Origin: Escherichia phage Ec_Makalu_002
Sequence record: MN709127.1
Reading direction: 5' to 3' (one strand)
DNA length: 64,000 nt
The translations under genes and the position numbers were made by a program. The notes under the pieces are model-generated. The model was not told where the DNA came from. It searched no databases and worked only from the letters and a program-made list of their open reading frames with translations. Of this stretch, positions 49,589-60,898 are shown piece after piece (position 1 is the stretch's first letter; every line of letters starts with the position of its first letter).

Positions 49589-50072
49589 ATTTTGCTAAAT
49601 CATTGCAATATTTTAGTGCCTTAGTTTGAAACTCTGCGCTGTTAAGTTCTTCATAACGGTCATAATCACCGTTTAATGCTGCCTTTCTTGCTTCTTGTTC
49701 TATCTGCATGTCAGACATGATAATACAACGATCCCGCGCTTTCATCTTCTCAAGTTGTATAGACTCTTCTTGTTGCTTGCGCAATTCTTCTTGATGCTTC
49801 TTTTCTTCTCGTGCTTTCTCTTCCCGCGCTTCTTTGATTGCATCTTTGAACATCTGCGTTTGTGGTGCTAAACCAACTTTAACGCGATCCACGTCTCGAC
49901 GTTCCATTTTAGAAATAAAACATGATTCGATCTGGTCATCGCTTGCATATGCTGCTTTACATTCACGAAGCAAGAAAACCGGATCTGATTTAGCATTCAT
50001 CATAGCTTCCATGTTAGTACAACCAGTAAGCATGAATGCAGCCGCAAGACCAATCAGTTTAATCATTTTCAT
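49587..50072 (-). CDS. Predicted lipoprotein with coiled-coil region
   Basis: N-terminus MKMIKLIGLAAAFMLTGC (signal peptide with lipobox LTGC); start overlaps stop of upstream gene by 4 nt. Confidence 0.55.
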   Translation of the reverse strand: MKMIKLIGLAAAFMLTGCTNMEAMMNAKSDPVFLLRECKAAYASDDQIESCFISKMERRDVDRVKVGLAPQTQMFKDAIKEAREEKAREEKKHQEELRKQQEESIQLEKMKARDRCIIMSDMQIEQEARKAALNGDYDRYEELNSAEFQTKALKYCNDLAK

Positions 50073-50893
50073 TTAGTCACCTCACCGAAAATTGTAAATT
50101 GTCTACGATTCTCATCGCCGAAAGATTCTACTACGTCGTTTACCTTGATGCAAGTCCCGCGCGGTAAAATTACTTCACATTCGCAAGGATTCCATGCAAT
50201 AGACCCAACAACAAAACCTTTATGATCTTTTACGTCAATTACCCATGATACATTACAAGAATGTTGCATCTTTCCGGTCATTGATTCATATCGATTCTCA
50301 CAATAAAGGCTAGTGCTGTTTGAAAGCCATCCTCCAAAGATGATCGGTGTCATGCTGGTCGATACAAAGTTTTTAAAGGTAAATTCCTTATCTTCAATAA
50401 TACGCTCTATTGTCTGAATGTCAAGATGTTGACCGCGATAAAGAGTACCGTTTAACTTTTCGGTTTTATCCATGACACAATCCATCAAATCGACAATCTC
50501 TGATATCTCATCGGTCATGTCTTCTTCCCCTAAGAGAGCACCATTTACCCATTCGTATTGTTCAGACACATAATCGCAGATTGCATTATATTCTGCTGGG
50601 GTTATGTTGTTATGTTTGTAATGTTTGAATACATTATCTCCAAAATCTTCGGAATGTACTTCATACATCACATTAATGATTTTCTTGACAAATCCATAAT
50701 CTTGCGTTTCTTGCTCAAGGAAACGGATAACTTTCACGTAATCATCAAAGTTAATATGATCGCTGATCATTTCAGTGATCATGTAACCATTAATCCCCTC
50801 AATGCCATATGTTTCGATGTAATTATCCATACGTTCCATCATTGATTCGCGTGATTCTTCGGAAAGGCGAAAATCCTGTAATTTCTTGAACAT
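50069..50893 (-). CDS. ADP-ribosyltransferase, short Alt/Mod-like paralogue
   Basis: R-S-E motif triad: LYRGQ, FVSTS, ECEVILPRG; ATG with GGAGG site. Confidence 0.65.
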   Translation of the reverse strand: MFKKLQDFRLSEESRESMMERMDNYIETYGIEGINGYMITEMISDHINFDDYVKVIRFLEQETQDYGFVKKIINVMYEVHSEDFGDNVFKHYKHNNITPAEYNAICDYVSEQYEWVNGALLGEEDMTDEISEIVDLMDCVMDKTEKLNGTLYRGQHLDIQTIERIIEDKEFTFKNFVSTSMTPIIFGGWLSNSTSLYCENRYESMTGKMQHSCNVSWVIDVKDHKGFVVGSIAWNPCECEVILPRGTCIKVNDVVESFGDENRRQFTIFGEVTK

Positions 50894-50972
50894 TTTAAAC
50901 CTCCCATATAACAGAAAACGGGGCTAGTATAAAACTAGTCCCCGTTTGAGTCAACCATTATTTCTTAAAAAA

Positions 50973-53024
50973 TTACATTTTAAATTTATCCGGCATAGCG
51001 TCTACAGACACAAGATCAGCGATAAGCTGACGTAGAGTTGCCTTATCTGCTTTCTTACGTTCGGTTTTAGCTTCGGTAATGAAGCTGGAGAAAGACAGGT
51101 CAGAAGCAGGTTTAACAACACCTTCACGGATGAATGCATCACCGTCCGCGATCATCTCACCAGATTCTTGTAATGCTGCCAGTTCATTTTTGTTCATAAT
51201 ATGTGCCTCGATGTAATAAGTTTCTTGTGAATCCGTCGATGCCGTAGCACGAGTTACCGTATCAAAGGATAACACAACACCGCGAGGAAGTAAAATCTCG
51301 CATTCTTTGTAAGCAAATGCTTTGTTACCTACTGGCAATACAGGGATGTTTTCCGCGCCAGCAATGGAGAAAGCAACATTAGCGCCACCTTCACCGCGAG
51401 ATCCCGCCATAGAATCAACACCAGCAACGGCACTAGCCACGTTTGCATTCCAGCCACCAAAAATATTAGGTGCAAGGGAAGTGCTCACATAGTTTTTAAA
51501 GTAAAACGCTTTTTGCTTACGTGCAGTTTCCCACATTTGCGACCGGAAGTCCATACCACGATACAAGATAGTACCTGGATCAAGTTTAACACCATAGTTA
51601 GCAAATGCGTTATCCAGTGCATCACACATCTTGACCAATTCTTCTGGGTCTGCGATGCCTTCAAACTCTTCCAGCTTACGGTCGGTTAGGAAGTTGTTCA
51701 TATTGATGTATGCTGCATCCGCATATTCGCTCAACACAAAACCTTCCGCGCCAGGCAGATCAAGATCAATATCTGCCATCATTTCACCCATGTTGCTAGC
51801 AATTGCTTCAAACATACCGGAAGCAACATTACGCAGGGCATCGGTTTTAATCTGCGTGATGTGACTACGCAGCATTTCAGCTTTTACATCTGCTGGCATA
51901 GACTGGTCGACGCGATCCATTGCCAGGGCGGTGATCTTGTTTTCGAATACTTCCTCGCTCATGATTTCTTTTAAGCGTTTGATTGATGCTGCGATGACTT
52001 CCGCAGACAACGGATCATATTGATCCTGAACTTTTACCAGTTCGCTTACTGCATATTTTGCATCGGCTTCGCTTTCAAAAATAGTACGCATGAAACCATA
52101 GCGAGTGATAATATCACTTGTCCAGTCATTCAGAGAACGGGCGGTTGAACGTTCTAAGGCTTGACGGTCAATCAGAGTATTAAACTGTTTCTTAGGTTCT
52201 GCTTCGGTGATATCTTCTTCCGGTTTAAGATTAATTTTTTCTGGATGATTCACATAGTCGCTGTTATAGGTCGCTTGAGTTTTCAGCATTTCTTCTTTAG
52301 TCAAACGAGATTTAGCCGCTACGCGTTGTTCTGCTTCCGCGTTTCGTTCTTCTTCCGACACAAGACTAGCCGCATACGCCTCATCTTTAGTCAGAGATTC
52401 ACCAGTAGCCTTAGATACCCAGCGATCACCTAAATCACTTTCTACTTTAGTGAACAGGGATTCATCGAGTTTAATCCCTTTAATCTTATCAATCGCCATC
52501 CCGCGACGTTTGACAACAACTAAAGCGATCTTTTTGCTGGTCATTACTTCCTGCTGGAATACTTCAAACTTCGGTGTACGACGCACCAAACGCTCTATAA
52601 CGCGCTTAACCAGTTCGGTCTTACCTTTCATGCGGGATACGTTAAAACGGAACATAACAGCGTCTAATTGCGCTTTACGGGCTGTTTCCATGACCACATC
52701 AAAAGCACTTGACATAACTGCAATCGGGTTATCTCCTAGACCATTTTTAAGCTGTACAATACGACCGCTTTTGTTCATTTCGCACAGTACAACATGTGCG
52801 GTCTTGTCACCCATACGAATGATTTTAGGTGTTTTGTTGGTGAAGTTACAAAGACGGACAATCACATCTTTATCGCGTGTCTGTACTGCAAAAAGCTGTT
52901 TAGGATTCTGCTTAGGCTTTAAGCACTGTACCGGAGCAATACTGCCAAAGTTTTCTTCCTCTTCCGTCAACAGCCATTTCTCGAAAGATTCAATCATTAG
53001 ATCGTCGATTTCTAAGTTAAACAT
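50973..53024 (-). CDS. alt: ADP-ribosyltransferase Alt
   Basis: 683 aa (T4 Alt 682 aa); C-terminal R-S-E motifs LYRGMD, YVSTS, ECEILLPRG; position next to gene 54. Confidence 0.8.
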   Translation of the reverse strand: MFNLEIDDLMIESFEKWLLTEEEENFGSIAPVQCLKPKQNPKQLFAVQTRDKDVIVRLCNFTNKTPKIIRMGDKTAHVVLCEMNKSGRIVQLKNGLGDNPIAVMSSAFDVVMETARKAQLDAVMFRFNVSRMKGKTELVKRVIERLVRRTPKFEVFQQEVMTSKKIALVVVKRRGMAIDKIKGIKLDESLFTKVESDLGDRWVSKATGESLTKDEAYAASLVSEEERNAEAEQRVAAKSRLTKEEMLKTQATYNSDYVNHPEKINLKPEEDITEAEPKKQFNTLIDRQALERSTARSLNDWTSDIITRYGFMRTIFESEADAKYAVSELVKVQDQYDPLSAEVIAASIKRLKEIMSEEVFENKITALAMDRVDQSMPADVKAEMLRSHITQIKTDALRNVASGMFEAIASNMGEMMADIDLDLPGAEGFVLSEYADAAYINMNNFLTDRKLEEFEGIADPEELVKMCDALDNAFANYGVKLDPGTILYRGMDFRSQMWETARKQKAFYFKNYVSTSLAPNIFGGWNANVASAVAGVDSMAGSRGEGGANVAFSIAGAENIPVLPVGNKAFAYKECEILLPRGVVLSFDTVTRATASTDSQETYYIEAHIMNKNELAALQESGEMIADGDAFIREGVVKPASDLSFSSFITEAKTERKKADKATLRQLIADLVSVDAMPDKFKM

Positions 53025-55189: not shown

Positions 55190-55431
55190 ATACGCCCCTT
55201 TAACCCAACACAGATTTTAGAAGGTTCTTTGCCGTGCCACATTAAGTAAATTCCGTTAATGCGTCCTTGTTTTGTATATGATTCTTTTCTGATCTTCTTA
55301 TAGTGTCGTGCTTCCTCAGCCGATTGTTTAGAATGTCGATCATAAAGGAAGAGGAACAAAGGCCAACCATTAGCGGCCTTAATGCAGTTATTCAAAAATT
55401 CCTTATTTCGTTTAATTAATTTTCTTTTCAC
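55186..55431 (-). CDS. Hypothetical basic protein
   Basis: 81 aa; apparent GTG start overlapping upstream stop (GTGA); no in-frame ATG nearby. Confidence 0.45.
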   Translation of the reverse strand: MKRKLIKRNKEFLNNCIKAANGWPLFLFLYDRHSKQSAEEARHYKKIRKESYTKQGRINGIYLMWHGKEPSKICVGLKGRI

Positions 55432-55679
55432 GCTGCCCCCATTGGTTTGATAGTAACAGAATCTAAAAGACCTTTGTTAGCCAGTTCGCGGCAAGTTTTC
55501 AGATCCGCAACTTCCCAGCCAGCCGCAATAAGGTTATCAATGAGGCTGTTAGCAACTTCTTCGCTCATGAAAGAGCACTGTTTGCCGATGGTGTAGCGTA
55601 CACGCTGTAATTTCAGTTTACGGAAGCCTTTAACGTTCAGGTCTTTAGCGATTTTCTTTGCGGTTTCGATGTTAGCCAT
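55428..55679 (-). CDS. Hypothetical early protein (first gene of five-gene operon)
   Basis: 83 aa; ATG preceded by TTAGGAGAATCAAAC leader and promoter module. Confidence 0.5.
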   Translation of the reverse strand: MANIETAKKIAKDLNVKGFRKLKLQRVRYTIGKQCSFMSEEVANSLIDNLIAAGWEVADLKTCRELANKGLLDSVTIKPMGAA

Positions 55680-55748: not shown

Positions 55749-55762
55749 CACTTTTTATAAAA

Positions 55763-55930
55763 TTATTTGTTAATTTCTGGTGCGTTGCTAGGATAGTAAC
55801 CTTCTTTAACTCCGAGGTATTTCGCAACCATCCCTACAATCTTCTGTGCTACTACAATGTCAAATTTCAGATAATCTTCGCCGTGGGTTTCAATGATATA
55901 TGCTTCACATGCTGCTTTAGTCTCGAACAT
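55763..55930 (-). CDS. Small protein (55 aa), duplicated gene copy A
   Basis: MFETKAACEAYIIETHGEDYLKFDIVVAQKIVGMVAKYLGVKEGYYPSNAPEINK; near-identical to 59046..59213. Confidence 0.5.
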   Translation of the reverse strand: MFETKAACEAYIIETHGEDYLKFDIVVAQKIVGMVAKYLGVKEGYYPSNAPEINK

Positions 55931-55963
55931 TTTGATTCTCCTATTTCGTTTCGGTATGTGTGT

Positions 55964-55992
55964 ATTATAGGGGATCTCCCGATCCCCGTCAA
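55964..55992 (-). promoter_or_regulatory. Early promoter with palindromic spacer (TTGACG-GGGATCGGGAGATCCCC-TATAAT)
   Basis: Hexamers plus GATC-containing hairpin spacer. Confidence 0.55.
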
Positions 55993-56006
55993 CAACTTTT
56001 TTAAAA

Positions 56007-56288
56007 TTATTCGTGATTAGTTTCGATATTGTGCATTTTGCACCAGTTCAGCCAATCGCCAAGATCTTGATAGTTGATGCTTTTATCTGCTGCCATCGTT
56101 TTTGTCTTGATACCCATATGTGCGTTATGAGTAAGCATTTTTACAGTGAACTCAATTTTATCGCCTTTAGCTTTAACATCAACCAGTTTGGTCCACTGGC
56201 TACCAGCACCGCGAATGTTCATACCAACGATGTTTCCGATGTATGCTTCTTTGTTGTTCAGGATTTCGGTTGCTTTGATGAATTTCAT
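56007..56288 (-). CDS. Hypothetical early protein
   Basis: 93 aa; ATG behind conserved leader. Confidence 0.5.
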   Translation of the reverse strand: MKFIKATEILNNKEAYIGNIVGMNIRGAGSQWTKLVDVKAKGDKIEFTVKMLTHNAHMGIKTKTMAADKSINYQDLGDWLNWCKMHNIETNHE

Positions 56289-56321
56289 TTTTGATTCTCC
56301 AGTTCGTTTCGGTATGGGTGT

Positions 56322-56350
56322 ATTATGCTATGTTCTTACTTTGGTGTCAA
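56322..56350 (-). promoter_or_regulatory. Early promoter (TTGACA-17-CATAAT)
   Basis: Repeated module; non-palindromic spacer. Confidence 0.55.
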
Positions 56351-56358
56351 CAACTTTT

Positions 56359-56628
56359 TTAGATATTTTCAGAAATAAATTTTAAAACTTGACGTAAATG
56401 TTTCTCATCTTTGATAGTCGCCGGAAGTTCTTCTTTTACTTCCTGTGCAAGATAGATATTTCCGTTCCAAGTGAAAGACCCGTCTTCGTTTACGCGATAG
56501 CTGAACATCCATTCGCAATCATTTTCGATTTCATATACACACAGAAGGGTGTAATCTTCAAAGCTATTGATTTCAAGGTCGAAGCCGTGGCGTTTTGCAA
56601 AGTTGGTAGTGGTTTTAGTCAGTGCCAT
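56359..56628 (-). CDS. Hypothetical early protein
   Basis: 89 aa; ATG behind conserved leader. Confidence 0.5.
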   Translation of the reverse strand: MALTKTTTNFAKRHGFDLEINSFEDYTLLCVYEIENDCEWMFSYRVNEDGSFTWNGNIYLAQEVKEELPATIKDEKHLRQVLKFISENI

Positions 56629-56668
56629 TGTTTGATTCTCCTAAGTGGTATCTCGTTTCGATGGGTGT

Positions 56669-56698
56669 ATTATGCTATAGGCGTGATCAGGTGTCAAT
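56669..56698 (-). promoter_or_regulatory. Early promoter (TTGACA-18-CATAAT)
   Basis: Repeated module. Confidence 0.5.
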
Positions 56699-56722
56699 GC
56701 CTTTTTTAAAATTTTATGCAAT

Positions 56723-56747
56723 AAAAAAGCCGACACTAAGGTCGGCT
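56723..56747 (-). terminator. Minus-strand terminator after paralogue P1
   Basis: AGCCGACCTTAGTGTCGGCT followed by TTTTTT on minus strand. Confidence 0.55.
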
Positions 56748-56754
56748 AATAAAA

Positions 56755-57063
56755 TCATTTAGACAAATAATCATTCAGTGCAATCCGGTCGGCATGTTCC
56801 GGCGTTACATCAATCGCAATCACTTTAACGCGTGCTTTCTTGCGACCTGGGTTTTCTCGTAACCAGTGCTCATGACCGTGAACATTTTTATACTGCGATG
56901 CTTCTTCGAAGGTACGGATCGGACCAGGGTAATCAGCGTAAAGGATCTCTAGGTCATCGGTGATGTAAAAATATACGTTGTAATTACTGTTCTCTAGCTT
57001 AAGCAGAGACTTTCGGAACATTGGGAGATTTTCGCGGGTAAATTCAAAAGTAATATCTTTCAT
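56755..57063 (-). CDS. HxHW-family paralogue P1
   Basis: ATG 57063 with GAGGA site (ORF-track start 57210 overlaps upstream gene); motifs YFYITDDLEI, HGHEHW, VIAIDV. Confidence 0.5.
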   Translation of the reverse strand: MKDITFEFTRENLPMFRKSLLKLENSNYNVYFYITDDLEILYADYPGPIRTFEEASQYKNVHGHEHWLRENPGRKKARVKVIAIDVTPEHADRIALNDYLSK

Positions 57064-57085
57064 AGTATTATCCTCAATAGTTGGA

Positions 57086-57107
57086 TGAAAAGGGGGCTTA
57101 ACGCCCC
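57086..57107 (-). terminator. Minus-strand terminator
   Basis: GGGGCGTTAAGCCCCC followed by TTTT on minus strand; same hairpin core as the wac terminator. Confidence 0.5.
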
Positions 57108-57112
57108 ATATA

Positions 57113-57400
57113 TTAAAACAGTCCTTCCTGTACACCGTAGTAGAGTTCGTCGCTGATAATTTCATTAATGCGACGGTGTGCATATTCCTGATTTGCGAAG
57201 TTGTCAGCAAGTTCTACTTTAGTTTCACCGTCATGAGTCCATTTAGTGATAACTTTACCATCTGCAAATTTGAAGTTGAACTCTTTAGCTACTGCATCGC
57301 GTACCAGACGTGCGAACTTGTTGTTACGGATTGCATTATCGGTTTCGTGTGCAGCGTGAGCAAATTTGTTAACTTTCAGAGTGATAGTGATGTATGCCAT
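57113..57400 (-). CDS. Hypothetical early protein
   Basis: 95 aa; ATG behind conserved leader. Confidence 0.5.
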   Translation of the reverse strand: MAYITITLKVNKFAHAAHETDNAIRNNKFARLVRDAVAKEFNFKFADGKVITKWTHDGETKVELADNFANQEYAHRRINEIISDELYYGVQEGLF

Positions 57401-57446
57401 AATTTGATTCTCCTAGTTAGAAAGTGTATCTCGTTTCGATGGGTGT

Positions 57447-57475
57447 ATTATGCTATACACCCGATCTTATGTCAA
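57447..57475 (-). promoter_or_regulatory. Early promoter (TTGACA-17-CATAAT)
   Basis: Repeated module. Confidence 0.55.
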
Positions 57476-57483
57476 CACTTTTT

Positions 57484-57762
57484 TTATAAAATAATTTTTT
57501 GATATTTTTCTATGATGTTTGTGTAATCCACATCAACCGCTATCACCGTTGCTTCGAATCCACCGTTTAGCCAATGGCTATGGTCATGATCGTGAAAGAA
57601 ACCAAGACCAGTACGAAGACCTTCTTTATATTCGGCGCGTACATTTAGATCATCATCGATAAACAGATAAAACCATGAATTTTTACTAGGATTGATGATA
57701 CAACCTTTCAGATTAGGGAGAATATCACGACTAAGAATAAACTTATCACCTACTTTGAACAT
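57484..57762 (-). CDS. HxHW-family paralogue P2
   Basis: ORF track starts at GTG 57777; ATG 57762 with GAGGA site; motifs FYLFIDDDLNV, HDHDHSHW, VIAVDV. Confidence 0.5.
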   Translation of the reverse strand: MFKVGDKFILSRDILPNLKGCIINPSKNSWFYLFIDDDLNVRAEYKEGLRTGLGFFHDHDHSHWLNGGFEATVIAVDVDYTNIIEKYQKIIL

Positions 57763-57766
57763 AATA

Positions 57767-58087
57767 TTAGTCCTCACTTATAAGGTCAAACCAATTGTTT
57801 TTCGCATAATGCTTAATGCGTGCTTGATCTGCTTCCGCTGGTGATAGATTCCATGCAACCACTACAACTTCTGACGCGTCGTCATCCGTTTCTGATACCC
57901 AATGATTGTGATTCATACAGTTATTTGCGATCGAGTGAGCAAATGATTTCATCACTGGAGACGTATAATCATAGTAACGGATTTTCAGATTTTCATCAAC
58001 ATACAAGTAGATCGTATAAGGTTTATATTCAGTAACCAGTAACAGACAGTTACGCAATTCTGGGAAAATCTTTTTAGTTAATTTCAT
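57767..58087 (-). CDS. HxHW-family paralogue P3
   Basis: ATG 58087 one nt after upstream stop, GAGGA site; motifs YLYVDENLKI, NHNHW. Confidence 0.5.
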   Translation of the reverse strand: MKLTKKIFPELRNCLLLVTEYKPYTIYLYVDENLKIRYYDYTSPVMKSFAHSIANNCMNHNHWVSETDDDASEVVVVAWNLSPAEADQARIKHYAKNNWFDLISED

Positions 58088-58088
58088 T

Positions 58089-58307
58089 TTATAATCCTCG
58101 GTCGCGGCTATAGTACACGGTACGCCATACAATTTCATGTTTCGTGTCGCTCCAGCACACGATCTCATTTACTCTTAAATCTTTGTTATCAACAAAAGAT
58201 GAACATTGTGACGCTTCTTTCATCATTTTATCTGCTGTTTTCTCATCAAATACAGCACAGATTTCTTTATACACTCGATAATCTTTGAATTGACTCTGGA
58301 TACCCAT
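58089..58307 (-). CDS. Hypothetical protein, tandem paralogue of 58267..58524
   Basis: Shares SQFKDYRVYKEI...MMKEASQC with upstream neighbour; start uncertain (58307 or 58319). Confidence 0.4.
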   Translation of the reverse strand: MGIQSQFKDYRVYKEICAVFDEKTADKMMKEASQCSSFVDNKDLRVNEIVCWSDTKHEIVWRTVYYSRDRGL

Positions 58308-58524
58308 AATTAACACCATTCCAACCAATTGTTTTTGAGAAAACGTTTATCCACTGTTGAGTGTAGCATGTTTCTTTCCATGATACAATACGAGTAGAAT
58401 AATGGTTTTTGTTTCCAGAAAAGGACGGGCATTTTGATGCATCTTCCATCATCTTTTCGGCGAACTCCGCGTCATATACCCGCAGGATCTGTTGATATGC
58501 TTTATAATCTTTAAATTTGCTCAT
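58267..58524 (-). CDS. Hypothetical protein, tandem paralogue of 58089..58307
   Basis: SKFKDYKAYQQI...MMEDASKC; ATG start. Confidence 0.45.
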   Translation of the reverse strand: MSKFKDYKAYQQILRVYDAEFAEKMMEDASKCPSFSGNKNHYSTRIVSWKETCYTQQWINVFSKTIGWNGVNYGYPESIQRLSSV

Positions 58525-58789
58525 AATTGTTAACTACCTTATCAGCTTCTTTTATTGTTTTTACATCAACTGCGATAATCCGTAAAGGTTCGTCGAAGGT
58601 CCACCAGTGGTCATGAATATCAGCTTGTGATTTATCACCAAAGGAATCACGAATATCATTTTTACATTTATAGCTAATATGGCCTTCATAGTCAACATAA
58701 AGGTAATTATCGAAAATCGGCGTTTTTAAGATCATACCGAAAAATCTTTCTTTGTGTGTCTTATCAAGTGTTGCAGTAATTCGCATCAT
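58511..58789 (-). CDS. HxHW-family paralogue P4
   Basis: Motifs YLYVDYEGHI, HDHWW, IIAVDV. Confidence 0.5.
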   Translation of the reverse strand: MMRITATLDKTHKERFFGMILKTPIFDNYLYVDYEGHISYKCKNDIRDSFGDKSQADIHDHWWTFDEPLRIIAVDVKTIKEADKVVNNYEQI

Positions 58790-58801
58790 AATATATTCCT
58801 C

Positions 58802-58981
58802 TTAGAAAGGGATGGTCATTTCTTGAGCTTGTACATTCTCGTTAGGATTAAACTTCATCCAACCGATATTGTCTACCAGCATATGTACATTTTTATCATA
58901 TCCTACGTGAGTAGTCAACACTAAATGTGCTTTACCTTCAACGATGATTTCCATGTACTTCTGAACTTCGATAGCTTTCAT
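58802..58981 (-). CDS. Small hypothetical early protein (59 aa)
   Basis: ATG behind conserved leader and promoter; below ORF-track cut-off. Confidence 0.4.
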   Translation of the reverse strand: MKAIEVQKYMEIIVEGKAHLVLTTHVGYDKNVHMLVDNIGWMKFNPNENVQAQEMTIPF

Positions 58982-59013
58982 TTTGATTCTCCGTTTGTTG
59001 TCTTGATGGGAGT

Positions 59014-59042
59014 ATCTTACTACTCCCTTTAATCATTGTCAA
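59014..59042 (-). promoter_or_regulatory. Early promoter (TTGACA-17-TAAGAT) with hairpin overlapping -10
   Basis: GGGAGTA...TACTCCC inverted repeat spans the -10 region. Confidence 0.5.
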
Positions 59043-59045
59043 CTA

Positions 59046-59213
59046 TTATTTGTTAATTTCCGGTGCGTTGCTCGGATAGTAACCTTCTTTAACACCCAGA
59101 TATTTTGCAACCATTCCGGTGATCTTCTGTGCTACTACGATATCGAATTTCAGGTAGTCTTCACCGTGGTTTGCTACAATGTATGCTTCGCATTCTGCTT
59201 TAGTCTGGAACAT
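59046..59213 (-). CDS. Small protein (55 aa), duplicated gene copy B
   Basis: MFQTKAECEAYIVANHGEDYLKFDIVVAQKITGMVAKYLGVKEGYYPSNAPEINK; ORF-track N-terminal extension runs through the promoter leader. Confidence 0.5.
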   Translation of the reverse strand: MFQTKAECEAYIVANHGEDYLKFDIVVAQKITGMVAKYLGVKEGYYPSNAPEINK

Positions 59214-59247
59214 TTTTGATTCTCCTATATCTCGTTGGTATGTGTGC

Positions 59248-59276
59248 ATTATAGGGGATCGGTGATCCCCTGTCAA
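59248..59276 (-). promoter_or_regulatory. Early promoter with palindromic spacer (TTGACA-GGGGATCACCGATCCCC-TATAAT)
   Basis: Consensus hexamers, 17-bp GATC-hairpin spacer. Confidence 0.6.
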
Positions 59277-59283
59277 CAACTTT

Positions 59284-59580
59284 TTATGATTTTTCTTTAT
59301 ATGCGTATTGAATAAATTGGTCCGCCACTTCGTCGGCTTTTTCGGGTTTGACTTCTGACGCCAGGACAATAGCTAGATCGGTTTCGTCGTTCCCGTCATA
59401 CCAATGATTATGAGTGTCTTTTTCTTTGATATAGAATGAGTCATTTGGAGTTGGACGACAATATACGTCTAAATTCTCGTCGATGTAAAAGATCCAATCT
59501 TCATAAAGAATAACCGTATTAGCAAGGTTCTTATTACCTTCAACGAAAGGTTCGGTTACAAACAAATCAGTACGTTCCAT
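59284..59580 (-). CDS. HxHW-family paralogue P5
   Basis: Motifs IFYIDENLDV, HNHW. Confidence 0.5.
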   Translation of the reverse strand: MERTDLFVTEPFVEGNKNLANTVILYEDWIFYIDENLDVYCRPTPNDSFYIKEKDTHNHWYDGNDETDLAIVLASEVKPEKADEVADQFIQYAYKEKS

Positions 59581-59814: not shown

Positions 59815-60147
59815 TCACACAAAATGGCGTGTCAATGCTTCTTTTGCGGTTCCGCTAAGATTCTCGATCTCTCCTGGCATAACATCAACCGCCAGAACTT
59901 CTACAACATCCTCTGTTCCTAACCAGTGAGTATGACCTTTGTAGAACTTGATGCCCATATTGCCTTCTTCGTCCCATTTAACGCCCCATTTAACGTTATC
60001 ACTAGCCCACCACACATCACCGTCGATAAAGTTGATGTAAAGCACACTACGCCACATTGAATTAGTTACTTTCAATACCGCGCCTTTCATCTCTTCCACG
60101 GTGTGGTCTTCCATTTTGAAGACCTCGCCTACCTGAACTTTTGCCAT
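59815..60147 (-). CDS. HxHW-family paralogue P6
   Basis: Motifs LYINFIDGDV, GHTHW, VLAVDV. Confidence 0.5.
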   Translation of the reverse strand: MAKVQVGEVFKMEDHTVEEMKGAVLKVTNSMWRSVLYINFIDGDVWWASDNVKWGVKWDEEGNMGIKFYKGHTHWLGTEDVVEVLAVDVMPGEIENLSGTAKEALTRHFV

Positions 60148-60164: not shown

Positions 60165-60344
60165 TTACATAACAATCACGCCAGCCGTTGAAAGTTGATG
60201 TTTCAACTGAGCATTTTCTGCTACTGTCAAATCAATGATTTCTTGTGACGCTGCAATCATATAGCCATTGGTGATATTGTTTTGCATCAGTTCAATGGTT
60301 TCTTCGTTGTAGCGGATTTTAGCGATGATTTCGTTGAAGTTCAT
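60165..60344 (-). CDS. Hypothetical early protein (59 aa)
   Basis: ATG 60344 behind conserved leader; ORF-track start 60380 lies inside the -10 element. Confidence 0.45.
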   Translation of the reverse strand: MNFNEIIAKIRYNEETIELMQNNITNGYMIAASQEIIDLTVAENAQLKHQLSTAGVIVM

Positions 60345-60378: not shown

Positions 60379-60408
60379 ATTATAGGGGATCTCCCGACCC
60401 CCTGTCAA
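60379..60408 (-). promoter_or_regulatory. Early promoter with palindromic spacer (TTGACA-GGGGGTCGGGAGATCCCC-TATAAT)
   Basis: Consensus hexamers, 18-bp hairpin spacer. Confidence 0.6.
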
Positions 60409-60421
60409 CAACTTTTTTGAA

Positions 60422-60898
60422 TTATTTTTCTTGATGCTCGCGCTCGTACTTTTCGAAATAAAATTCTACTGGCTGATCGTGGATTGAAAGCAAGCCAAAG
60501 CGTTTAGCCGCACGTAATCCCATGTTACGTTGAATGTACTTCTGGAAGTTCTCGCGTATACACTTACGCCAGTATTCTAAGCCCATACAGCTTTTGTAAA
60601 GATTGCATTGCACACAAGCCGGATTCATGTTGTCAAGTATATCGTGCTCCGGTTTATGCATTCCTACAACCTTATACTTCCACGACCCATCATCATTACG
60701 GGCAATTCGTCCATTTTCATCATAGACTACTTTTGAGCGTCGCAATACTGGTTTGATGTGGTCTGCGTGCCAGCGATCCCCTAGTTCCTCGCCACAATAG
60801 GCACAACGTCCACCGTATTTCATTTTCAGGATCTGGCGTTGCTCTTTCTTTGACAATTTTTTAGGTTTAGGGGCTTTCGCCCCTTCATTATCACACAT
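60422..60898 (-). CDS. HNH endonuclease
   Basis: CAYCG ... WHADHIKP ... N ... CVQCN (HNH zinc-finger nuclease signature); start overlaps 3' end of ligase gene. Confidence 0.7.
   Translation of the reverse strand: MCDNEGAKAPKPKKLSKKEQRQILKMKYGGRCAYCGEELGDRWHADHIKPVLRRSKVVYDENGRIARNDDGSWKYKVVGMHKPEHDILDNMNPACVQCNLYKSCMGLEYWRKCIRENFQKYIQRNMGLRAAKRFGLLSIHDQPVEFYFEKYEREHQEK

What the first reader, a model, noticed from the sequence alone, without database searches (positions are those of the whole stretch)
55763..59213. Recent segmental duplication of a 55-aa gene within the early array
ORFs 55763-55930 and 59046-59213 encode nearly identical proteins (MFETKAACEAYIIETHGEDYLKFDIVVAQKIVGMVAKYLGVKEGYYPSNAPEINK versus MFQTKAECEAYIVANHGEDYLKFDIVVAQKITGMVAKYLGVKEGYYPSNAPEINK), with roughly 85% nucleotide identity by eye, 3.3 kb apart. 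Each sits directly behind a promoter/leader module. This fits module-mediated duplication and suggests selection for dosage or divergence of this small protein.
Basis: seen in the sequence. Interest (0 to 1): 0.5.

Follow-up and report, generated by a model that had tools for sequence, protein, structure and literature searches.

The report
Old duplicated small early-gene cassette
Two copies of a 55-codon gene of unknown function lie 3.3 kb apart in the early region of an RB49-like (Krischvirus) coliphage; the duplication is real but old, shared by almost the whole genus, bounded by the already described mobile promoter cassettes (PeSLs), and ordinary for this kind of phage.

Summary
The two ORFs, both on the minus strand, are 84.5% identical in DNA and 89% in protein, 3,283 bp apart, and each follows a near-consensus sigma-70 promoter with a stem-loop and a leader. 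The window is a Krischvirus (RB49-like T4-type phage). The copies are RB49 ORF191 and ORF205, and the modules are the published PeSL cassettes.

The duplication is not recent. Synonymous sites are near saturation (dS about 1, dN/dS 0.05). Orthologues in RB49, JSE and Phi1 are 97-100% identical, yet A and B differ by about 15% in every genome checked. Both copies occur in 51 of 58 Krischvirus records.

It is not segmental either: only the 168-nt ORF is specifically homologous, between PeSL borders.

Single-copy genomes look like secondary losses. Cognac and FL04 lost the whole interval by recombination between the two cassettes, at different crossover points. JK32, Brandy and UPWr_E1 lack only the copy-A cassette and carry a chimeric PeSL. 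MIZ4 has a larger deletion.

The protein family is tiny (phrog_8009) and has no detectable fold relatives, so its function is unknown. Verdict: a new, well-behaved example of known PeSL cassette shuffling; low to moderate interest.

The parts
55763..55930 (-). Copy A: 55-aa ORF (orthologue of RB49 ORF191 / RB49p191, phi1p191, EpJSE_00198)
   Evidence: phrog_8009 E=7e-38
55931..56006 (-). PeSL upstream of copy A (PeSL193/191): AT-rich tract, -35 TTGACG 55992-55987, stem-loop GGGGATC..GATCCCC in the 17-nt spacer, -10 TATAAT 55969-55964, leader with SD AGGAG near 55942, ATG 55930
   Evidence: anatomy as defined in PMC2839356
55680..55762 (-). PeSL downstream of copy A (PeSL191/190), promoter TTGACA-17-TACAAT with stem-loop GGGGAG..CTCCCC; drives the ORF190 homologue (55428-55679)
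59046..59213 (-). Copy B: 55-aa ORF (orthologue of RB49 ORF205 / RB49p205, phi1p205, EpJSE_00210)
   Evidence: phrog_8009 E=1e-38
59214..59283 (-). PeSL upstream of copy B (PeSL206/205): -35 TTGACA 59276-59271, stem-loop GGGGATC..GATCCCC, -10 TATAAT 59253-59248, SD near 59226, ATG 59213. The RB49/phi1 counterpart was cloned and gave ~13,000 Miller units
   Evidence: PMC2839356
58982..59045 (-). PeSL downstream of copy B (PeSL205/204): TTGACA-17-TAAGAT with stem-loop GGGAGTA..TACTCCC overlapping the -10; drives the ORF204 homologue (58802-58981)
56007..58981 (-). Interval between the two cassettes: about 10 small early ORFs of unknown function (homologues of RB49 ORFs 193, 194, 197-204). The whole block is missing from phages Cognac and FL04, where a single chimeric A/B cassette joins ORF206 to ORF190

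Best explanation
The two ORFs are old paralogues of one small early gene (RB49 ORF191 and ORF205). Each is a single-gene cassette flanked on both sides by PeSL promoter/stem-loop/leader modules, in a hyperplastic early region of a Krischvirus genome.

Inferred origin: in an ancestor of the sampled genus, one cassette was copied to a second PeSL site by recombination within the conserved PeSL sequences. The likely route is excision as a PeSL mini-circle from one replicating genome copy and reinsertion at another PeSL. Copy A, linked to ORF194, is probably the parental locus.

Shown: since then both copies have been kept by strong purifying selection, and each is transcribed from its own very strong sigma-70 early promoter. 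The repeated cassettes (about 240 bp at 85-87% identity) also act as substrates for homologous recombination. This gives occasional gene-conversion patches and, at least twice, deletion of the whole 3-4 kb block between them. Recombination between the two PeSLs that flank copy A removes that cassette alone.

Inferred only: the product is a 6.2-kDa, mildly acidic, probably alpha/beta cytoplasmic protein made immediately after infection. I take it to be an accessory host-interaction factor (host take-over or counter-defence). The two versions differ mainly on one face of the N-terminal helix (residues 3, 7, 14).
For: Identity of the locus:
- 92-99.8% nt identity to 58 Krischvirus records.
- Copies are RB49p191 and RB49p205.

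Age:
- dS 1.05, dN 0.055, dN/dS 0.053.
- Orthologues are 97-100% identical across the window, RB49, JSE, Phi1 and MIZ4, while A vs B is 84-87% in each.
- Two copies in 51/58 records.

Cassette borders:
- PeSLs lie on both sides of each copy.
- A-B PeSL similarity (83%) is not above that of unrelated cassettes (A's PeSL vs the one at 60342: 90%).
- No neighbouring genes are homologous.

Mechanism, from PMC2839356:
- A mini-circle carrying ORFs 191-194, formed by a PeSL x PeSL crossover, was sequenced from RB49 infections.
- Crossovers lay between the -10 box and the SD/ATG.
- PeSL206/205 is a very strong promoter.

Natural recombinants:
- FL04 has a crossover inside the PeSL stem-loop.
- Cognac has a B-type leader, A-type nt 7-108, a B-type patch at nt 114-141 and an A-type downstream flank.
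- Both lack the interval.
- JK32, Brandy and UPWr_E1 carry a chimeric PeSL193/190 with the junction ...ACACACAT|CAAGACGAG..., between -10 and SD.
- MIZ4 lacks ORFs 191-186.

Gene conversion:
- Paralogue-type states appear sporadically in the other copy.
- Only 2 of 26 differences fall in the last 48 nt (hypergeometric p = 0.006, post hoc), although that stretch tolerates synonymous change in the outgroup (6/42).

A and B as sisters:
- nt identity is A-B 84% against A-L003 76% and B-L003 72%.
- Quartet sites are 6 vs 3 vs 2, with four-point bootstrap 82%.

A as parental locus:
- In L003 the homologue directly follows an ORF194 homologue.

Coding status:
- The ORF is conserved in unrelated siphoviruses such as swi2 and SeSz-2.
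Against: - The sister relation of A and B has only moderate support (82%), and gene conversion would inflate it.
- The JK32-type 193|190 junction fits an empty, never-occupied site as well as an excision scar. I built no genome phylogeny to polarise it.
- The mini-circle route to duplication is inferred. The paper shows excision, not reinsertion, and neither PeSL paper's text mentions duplication or paralogues.
- Only one of the five AlphaFold models is confident (pLDDT 83; the others 49-66).
Confidence: 0.72

Rival explanations
1. The two copies are xenologues, not an in-genome duplication. Two related cassettes would have been acquired separately from different donor phages, for example as encapsidated PeSL mini-circles, and inserted at two PeSL sites.
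For: The family also occurs in unrelated phages (Swiduovirus-like siphoviruses of E. coli and Salmonella, two Aeromonas phage records) and in an unclassified Logan contig. PeSL mini-circles are reported inside virions (PMC2839356). The A+B grouping has only 82% four-point support. Three genomes have an intact-looking PeSL at the copy-A site.
Against: A and B are closer to each other (84% nt, 89% aa) than either is to any other sequence found. This held among 50,697 phage records, 5.8 billion clustered proteins and 1.84 billion representatives; the next best are 83%/78% aa and then 72% or less. They share the C-terminal extension PEINK, which the siphovirus homologues lack.
Confidence: 0.15
2. 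A recent duplication, private to this genome or strain and possibly still polymorphic, or an assembly artefact.
For: None beyond the high protein identity (89%).
Against: pS = 0.56 and dS about 1. The A/B split is the same in RB49, JSE, Phi1 and the window, and orthologues are 97-100% identical. Two copies are present in 51/58 independent records. Copies that differ by 15% cannot be collapsed or duplicated by an assembler.
Confidence: 0.02
3. The conserved repeat is not primarily a protein-coding gene. It would be a DNA or RNA element, for example a recombination handle or a regulatory RNA, whose ORF is incidental.
For: The cassettes do act as recombination substrates (Cognac and FL04). The 3' 48 nt are unusually similar between the copies.
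Against: Differences are overwhelmingly synonymous (19 synonymous vs 7 non-synonymous; dN/dS 0.05; p = 8e-11). The ORF keeps its SD and ATG. The reading frame and the GYYPSN motif are kept in homologues at 57-72% aa identity in unrelated phages. The outgroup shows synonymous change in the 3' stretch.
Confidence: 0.03

Closest known systems
PeSL (promoter-early stem-loop) cassettes of RB49/phi1 hyperplastic regions (Arbiol et al. 2010, PMC2839356; Comeau et al. 2014, PMC4122927)
   Same: Same genus, same locus and same module anatomy: an AT-rich tract, a near-consensus sigma-70 promoter, a G/C stem-loop, then SD and ATG. ORF191 was part of a sequenced mini-circle, and PeSL206/205 was the promoter assayed. 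The natural indels seen here have crossovers where the paper mapped them, between the -10 box and the SD/ATG or inside the PeSL.
   Different: The papers describe insertion, deletion and replacement between genomes. Their text does not mention intragenomic duplication or the 191/205 paralogy. Here the shuffled cassette exists twice in one genome, and the ORF itself, not only the PeSL, serves as recombination homology (Cognac mosaic).
phrog_8009 (PHROGs v4, unknown function)
   Same: Both copies match full length (1-55 of 55) at E about 1e-38.
   Different: The family carries no functional annotation, so membership says nothing about function.
Other paralogous early-gene sets of T4-type phages (e.g. 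Alt and Alt-like ADP-ribosyltransferase paralogues, present in this window at 50069-53024)
   Same: Early-region genes that were duplicated and then diverged. The window holds several such sets.
   Different: Those pairs are 27-43% identical in protein. The A/B pair (89%) is by far the youngest in the window and is the only one still able to recombine.

Membership tests
PeSL cassette (Arbiol et al. 2010) | Near-consensus sigma-70 promoter (TTGACA-N17-TATAAT) | tested here: met
   Upstream of B 12/12 and upstream of A 11/12; downstream modules 11/12 and 10/12.
PeSL cassette (Arbiol et al. 2010) | Stable G-run/C-run stem-loop within or overlapping the promoter | tested here: met
   GGGGATC-loop-GATCCCC between -35 and -10, at -12.8 to -13.9 kcal/mol. 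In the 205/204 module the stem overlaps the -10 box.
PeSL cassette (Arbiol et al. 2010) | AT-rich tract with the upstream gene's stop codon 5' of the -35; Shine-Dalgarno and start codon at the 3' end | tested here: met
   TAA...AAAAAGTTG TTGAC ... TAGGAGAATCAAA ATG read directly.
PeSL cassette (Arbiol et al. 2010) | Located in a hyperplastic region, immediately upstream of an ORFan, associated with indels between close relatives | tested here: met
   The array lies between DNA ligase/HNH and alt. Cassette presence varies among RB49, JSE, Phi1, MIZ4, Cognac, FL04, JK32, Brandy and UPWr_E1.
PeSL cassette (Arbiol et al. 2010) | Promoter and terminator activity; mini-circle formation | not testable with these tools
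   Reported for the orthologous modules in RB49/phi1: PeSL206/205 gave ~13,000 Miller units, and a mini-circle carried ORFs 191-194 (PMC2839356).
Recent segmental duplication | Low synonymous divergence between the copies | tested here: not met
   pS 0.56, dS about 1.05.
Recent segmental duplication | Lineage-specific: absent from close relatives | tested here: not met
   Both copies are in 51/58 Krischvirus records, at the same positions.
Recent segmental duplication | The duplicated unit spans several genes or a segment beyond one ORF | tested here: not met
   Specific homology is limited to the 168-nt ORF. The flanks are generic PeSLs, and the neighbouring genes are unrelated.
phrog_8009 | Full-length profile match | tested here: met
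   E = 7e-38 and 1e-38, residues 1-55 of 55.

The most novel reading that the evidence does not exclude
The pair may be more than a passive relic. The two versions would be functionally diverged: charge swaps at residues 3, 7 and 14 lie on one face of the N-terminal helix and are stably different across the genus. They might act on different host or defence targets. The repeated cassettes would also make the block of about 10 early ORFans between them a recurrently deletable, population-level switchable module, which has been lost independently at least twice.
Probability: 0.12. Interest if true: 0.5.

Novelty: new member of a known kind. Interest (0 to 1): 0.25.

Why it matters
It gives a clean natural example of what the PeSL model predicts but the original papers did not document: a cassette present twice in one genome. 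It also supplies a set of sequenced field isolates that record the expected recombination products, namely a chimeric PeSL left at the copy-A site and deletion of the whole interval between the two copies at two different crossover points. That helps explain how the arrays of small early ORFans in T4-type phages grow and shrink. It does not reveal a new mechanism, and the protein's function remains unknown.

Tried and rejected
- Function by sequence: Pfam, NCBIfam and a PDB sequence-profile search all gave nothing. PHROGs gave only families of unknown function.
- Homologue searches: the word-indexed search of 5.8 billion clusters gave 4 hits. The exhaustive phmmer search of 1.84 billion representatives gave 3. 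The family is tiny.
- Literature: searching for the locus tags and accessions found no paper. A Krischvirus/paralogue search returned nothing relevant.
- I suspected that the 158-aa HNH ORF at 60422-60898 was a relocated RB49 ORF192. It is not: only 29 of 159 aligned positions are identical, which I read as unrelated, and ORF192 has a signal-peptide-like N-terminus.
- I looked for co-duplicated neighbours or a co-duplicated promoter. None were found.
- L003 (the closest outgroup) could not be placed. It has only short matches in phages and none in complete E. coli genomes.
- The Biopython NJ bootstrap labels were unusable after rooting. I replaced them with a quartet and four-point bootstrap.
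Full report
**1. Observation**

Both ORFs are real and lie on the minus strand. The plus-strand translation of the stated coordinates gives no ORF.

- DNA identity is 142/168 (84.5%) and protein identity 49/55 (89%). The six differences are at residues 3, 7, 13, 14, 15 and 32.
- The repeat finder reports a gapless 172-nt direct repeat, 55762-55933 vs 59045-59216, at 85% with a spacing of 3,283 bp. A further 47 nt at 87% runs into the upstream module.
- tblastn of either protein against the window gives E about 1e-31 for the other copy and finds no third copy.

**2. Source of the window**

The region is 92-99.8% identical to 58 Krischvirus records (RB49-like T4-type coliphages). The closest are Ec_Makalu_001 and Ec_Makalu_003. 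In RB49, copy A is RB49p191 (ORF191) and copy B is RB49p205 (ORF205). The array lies between DNA ligase/HNH and the alt ADP-ribosyltransferase genes.

**3. The modules**

Upstream of each copy is an AT-rich tract, then TTGAC(A/G), a 17-nt spacer holding the stem-loop GGGGATC-loop-GATCCCC, then TATAAT. After that comes the leader ACACATACC...TAGGAGAATCAAA and the ATG.

- Consensus matches are 12/12 for B and 11/12 for A.
- The stems fold at -12.8 and -13.9 kcal/mol.
- Each copy is also followed directly by another such module, which drives the next gene.

This is the anatomy of the PeSL (promoter-early stem-loop) cassettes that Arbiol et al. 2010 described for RB49 and phi1 (PMC2839356). That paper worked on this very locus:

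- PeSL206/205, the module in front of copy B, was cloned and gave about 13,000 Miller units.
- A sequenced mini-circle from RB49 infections carried ORFs 191-194. It arose by a crossover between the PeSLs of the 190-191 and 194-195 spacers, at a site between the -10 box and the ATG.

Searches of the text of that paper and of Comeau et al. 2014 found no mention of duplication or paralogues.

**4. Age of the duplication**

- Nei-Gojobori counts give 19 synonymous differences on 33.7 sites (pS 0.56, dS about 1.05) and 7 non-synonymous differences on 131.3 sites (dN 0.055). That is dN/dS 0.053 (Fisher p = 8e-11).
- Orthologues of A, and of B, are 97-100% identical across the window, RB49, JSE, Phi1 and MIZ4. 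A versus B is 84-87% in every genome.
- tblastn finds two copies in 51 of the 58 Krischvirus records (121 places = 51x2 + 7 + 12 outside the genus).

The split between A and B therefore predates the sampled diversity of the genus. It is not recent, and it cannot be an assembly artefact.

**5. Extent of the duplication**

Only the ORF is specifically homologous.

- The upstream PeSLs of A and B are 83% alike. A's PeSL is 90% alike to that of an unrelated cassette at 60342, and other pairs reach similar values.
- The downstream modules belong to different PeSL subclasses.
- An all-against-all BLASTP of window ORFs shows no homology between the neighbours of A and those of B.

The unit is one PeSL-bounded cassette, not a segment.

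**6. Duplication or double acquisition?**

The family is very small. It matches phrog_8009. The 5.8-billion-cluster search gave 4 hits and the exhaustive search of 1.84 billion representatives gave 3. Outside Krischvirus it occurs in these places:

- Swiduovirus-like siphoviruses (swi2, SeSz-2, D10, Pu29, Bas81), at 68-72% amino-acid identity.
- A few more distant phage records.
- One Logan contig, L003, at 83% to A and 78% to B.

At the DNA level A-B is 84% identical, against 76% for A-L003 and 72% for B-L003. Quartet-informative sites are 6 for AB|outgroups against 3 and 2 for the alternatives, and the four-point bootstrap is 82%.

An in-lineage duplication is therefore favoured but not proven, and gene conversion would bias this test towards it. 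In L003 the homologue directly follows a homologue of ORF194 (41% aa identity). This suggests that copy A, which is linked to ORF194, sits at the older locus.

**7. Natural recombinants**

Seven records have one copy.

- **Cognac and FL04.** Both carry a single cassette with ORF206 upstream (copy-B context) and ORF190 downstream (copy-A context). They lack the whole interval: only 6% of it matches, through PeSL repeats elsewhere.
  - In FL04 the switch from B-type to A-type sequence lies inside the PeSL stem-loop.
  - In Cognac the leader is B-type, CDS nt 7-108 are A-type, nt 114-141 are B-type, and the downstream flank is A-type.
  - The two also carry different ORF206 3' ends. They are therefore independent deletions by recombination between the two cassettes, and Cognac shows a mosaic that I interpret as a heteroduplex-repair product.
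- **JK32, Brandy and UPWr_E1.** These lack only the copy-A cassette. ORF193 is joined to ORF190 by a chimeric PeSL...TATA(A/C)TACACACAT|CAAGACGAGATAC.... The junction lies between the -10 box and the SD, as in the published mini-circle crossovers.
- **MIZ4 (and MIZ5, inferred).** MIZ4 lacks ORFs 191-186. MIZ5 was not fetched. It is grouped with MIZ4 because the two records give identical hit coordinates and the same single B-type copy.

Scattered paralogue-type bases in the other copy suggest continuing gene conversion: RB49_A nt 37, Phi1_B nt 44, JSE_A nt 114, MIZ4 nt 141 and 153. So does the deficit of differences in the last 48 nt (2 of 26; p = 0.006, post hoc), because the outgroup shows that this stretch tolerates synonymous change.

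**8. The protein**

It is 6.2 kDa with pI 5.2 (A) and 5.6 (B). Pfam, NCBIfam and PDB sequence searches found nothing.

Function therefore rests on inference. The protein is made at once from a very strong early promoter. It sits in an accessory region where each copy can be lost singly. It is shared with unrelated coliphages. All of this fits an accessory host-interaction or counter-defence factor. Four of the six A/B differences lie in the predicted N-terminal helix, and residues 3, 7 and 14 fall on one face with charge swaps.

No sampled genome lacks both copies. With 2 and 5 single losses in 58 records, however, the expected number of double losses is only about 0.2, so this carries no weight.

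**9. Verdict**

It is wrong on 'recent' and 'segmental'. Selection is purifying, and the data do not separate dosage from divergence. This is a new, tidy example of a known process (PeSL cassette shuffling in RB49-like phages), with natural isolates that document the predicted recombination products. Interest is low to moderate.

Noticed in passing
window 56755-57210, 57484-57777, 57767-58168, 58511-58789, 59284-59580, 59815-60147 (all minus strand): Six divergent paralogues (23-29% aa identity) are interspersed in the same early array. They share an invariant H-x-H-W motif followed by (V/I)(I/L)A(V/I)DV. No Pfam family matches. This suggests much older rounds of cassette duplication in the array.
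   Followed up: partly
window 58267-58524 and 58089-58319 (minus strand): Two adjacent, slightly overlapping small ORFs (homologues of RB49 ORF202 and ORF201) are 43% identical over 61 aa. They form a tandem paralogue pair.
   Followed up: no
window 55679 and 53304 (starts of the ORF190 and ORF185 homologues, minus strand): The two otherwise unrelated genes share their first 16 nt (ATGGCTAACATCGAAA, MANIE) as well as the PeSL leader. Module homology, and so possible crossover sites, therefore extends into the first codons. The MIZ4 deletion joins the ORF193 spacer to this ORF185 start.
   Followed up: partly
window 59248-59253 and near 60380 (minus strand): The -10 box TATAATG of PeSL206/205, and of the PeSL at 60408, contains an ATG in frame with the downstream ORF. 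ORF finders and some public gene calls therefore add a spurious N-terminal extension (MHTYQRDIGESK...). Examples are the 107-aa and 71-aa ORFs and P0004. P0004 is also a copy-B sequence fused after residue 40 to unrelated sequence on a 1.7-kb Logan contig.
   Followed up: no
L003 5001-5165 (Logan contig SRR5584643_240): The closest non-Krischvirus homologue (83% to A) directly follows an ORF194 homologue, with overlapping stop and start and no PeSL. It lies next to genes that look like E. coli ycdX (PHP) and ghrA. The element has only short matches in the phage collection and none in 5,426 complete E. coli genomes.
   Followed up: partly
window 55931-56006; L001 4449-4925; L004 6621-6932: The PeSL in front of copy A is an insertion hot spot. 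RB49 carries ORF192 there (158 aa, signal-peptide-like N-terminus) and JSE carries an unrelated 312-nt ORF. The window and Phi1 have nothing there. PeSL stem-loop variants are also exchanged between sites: JSE's copy-A PeSL has the stem-loop that the window uses at copy B.
   Followed up: partly
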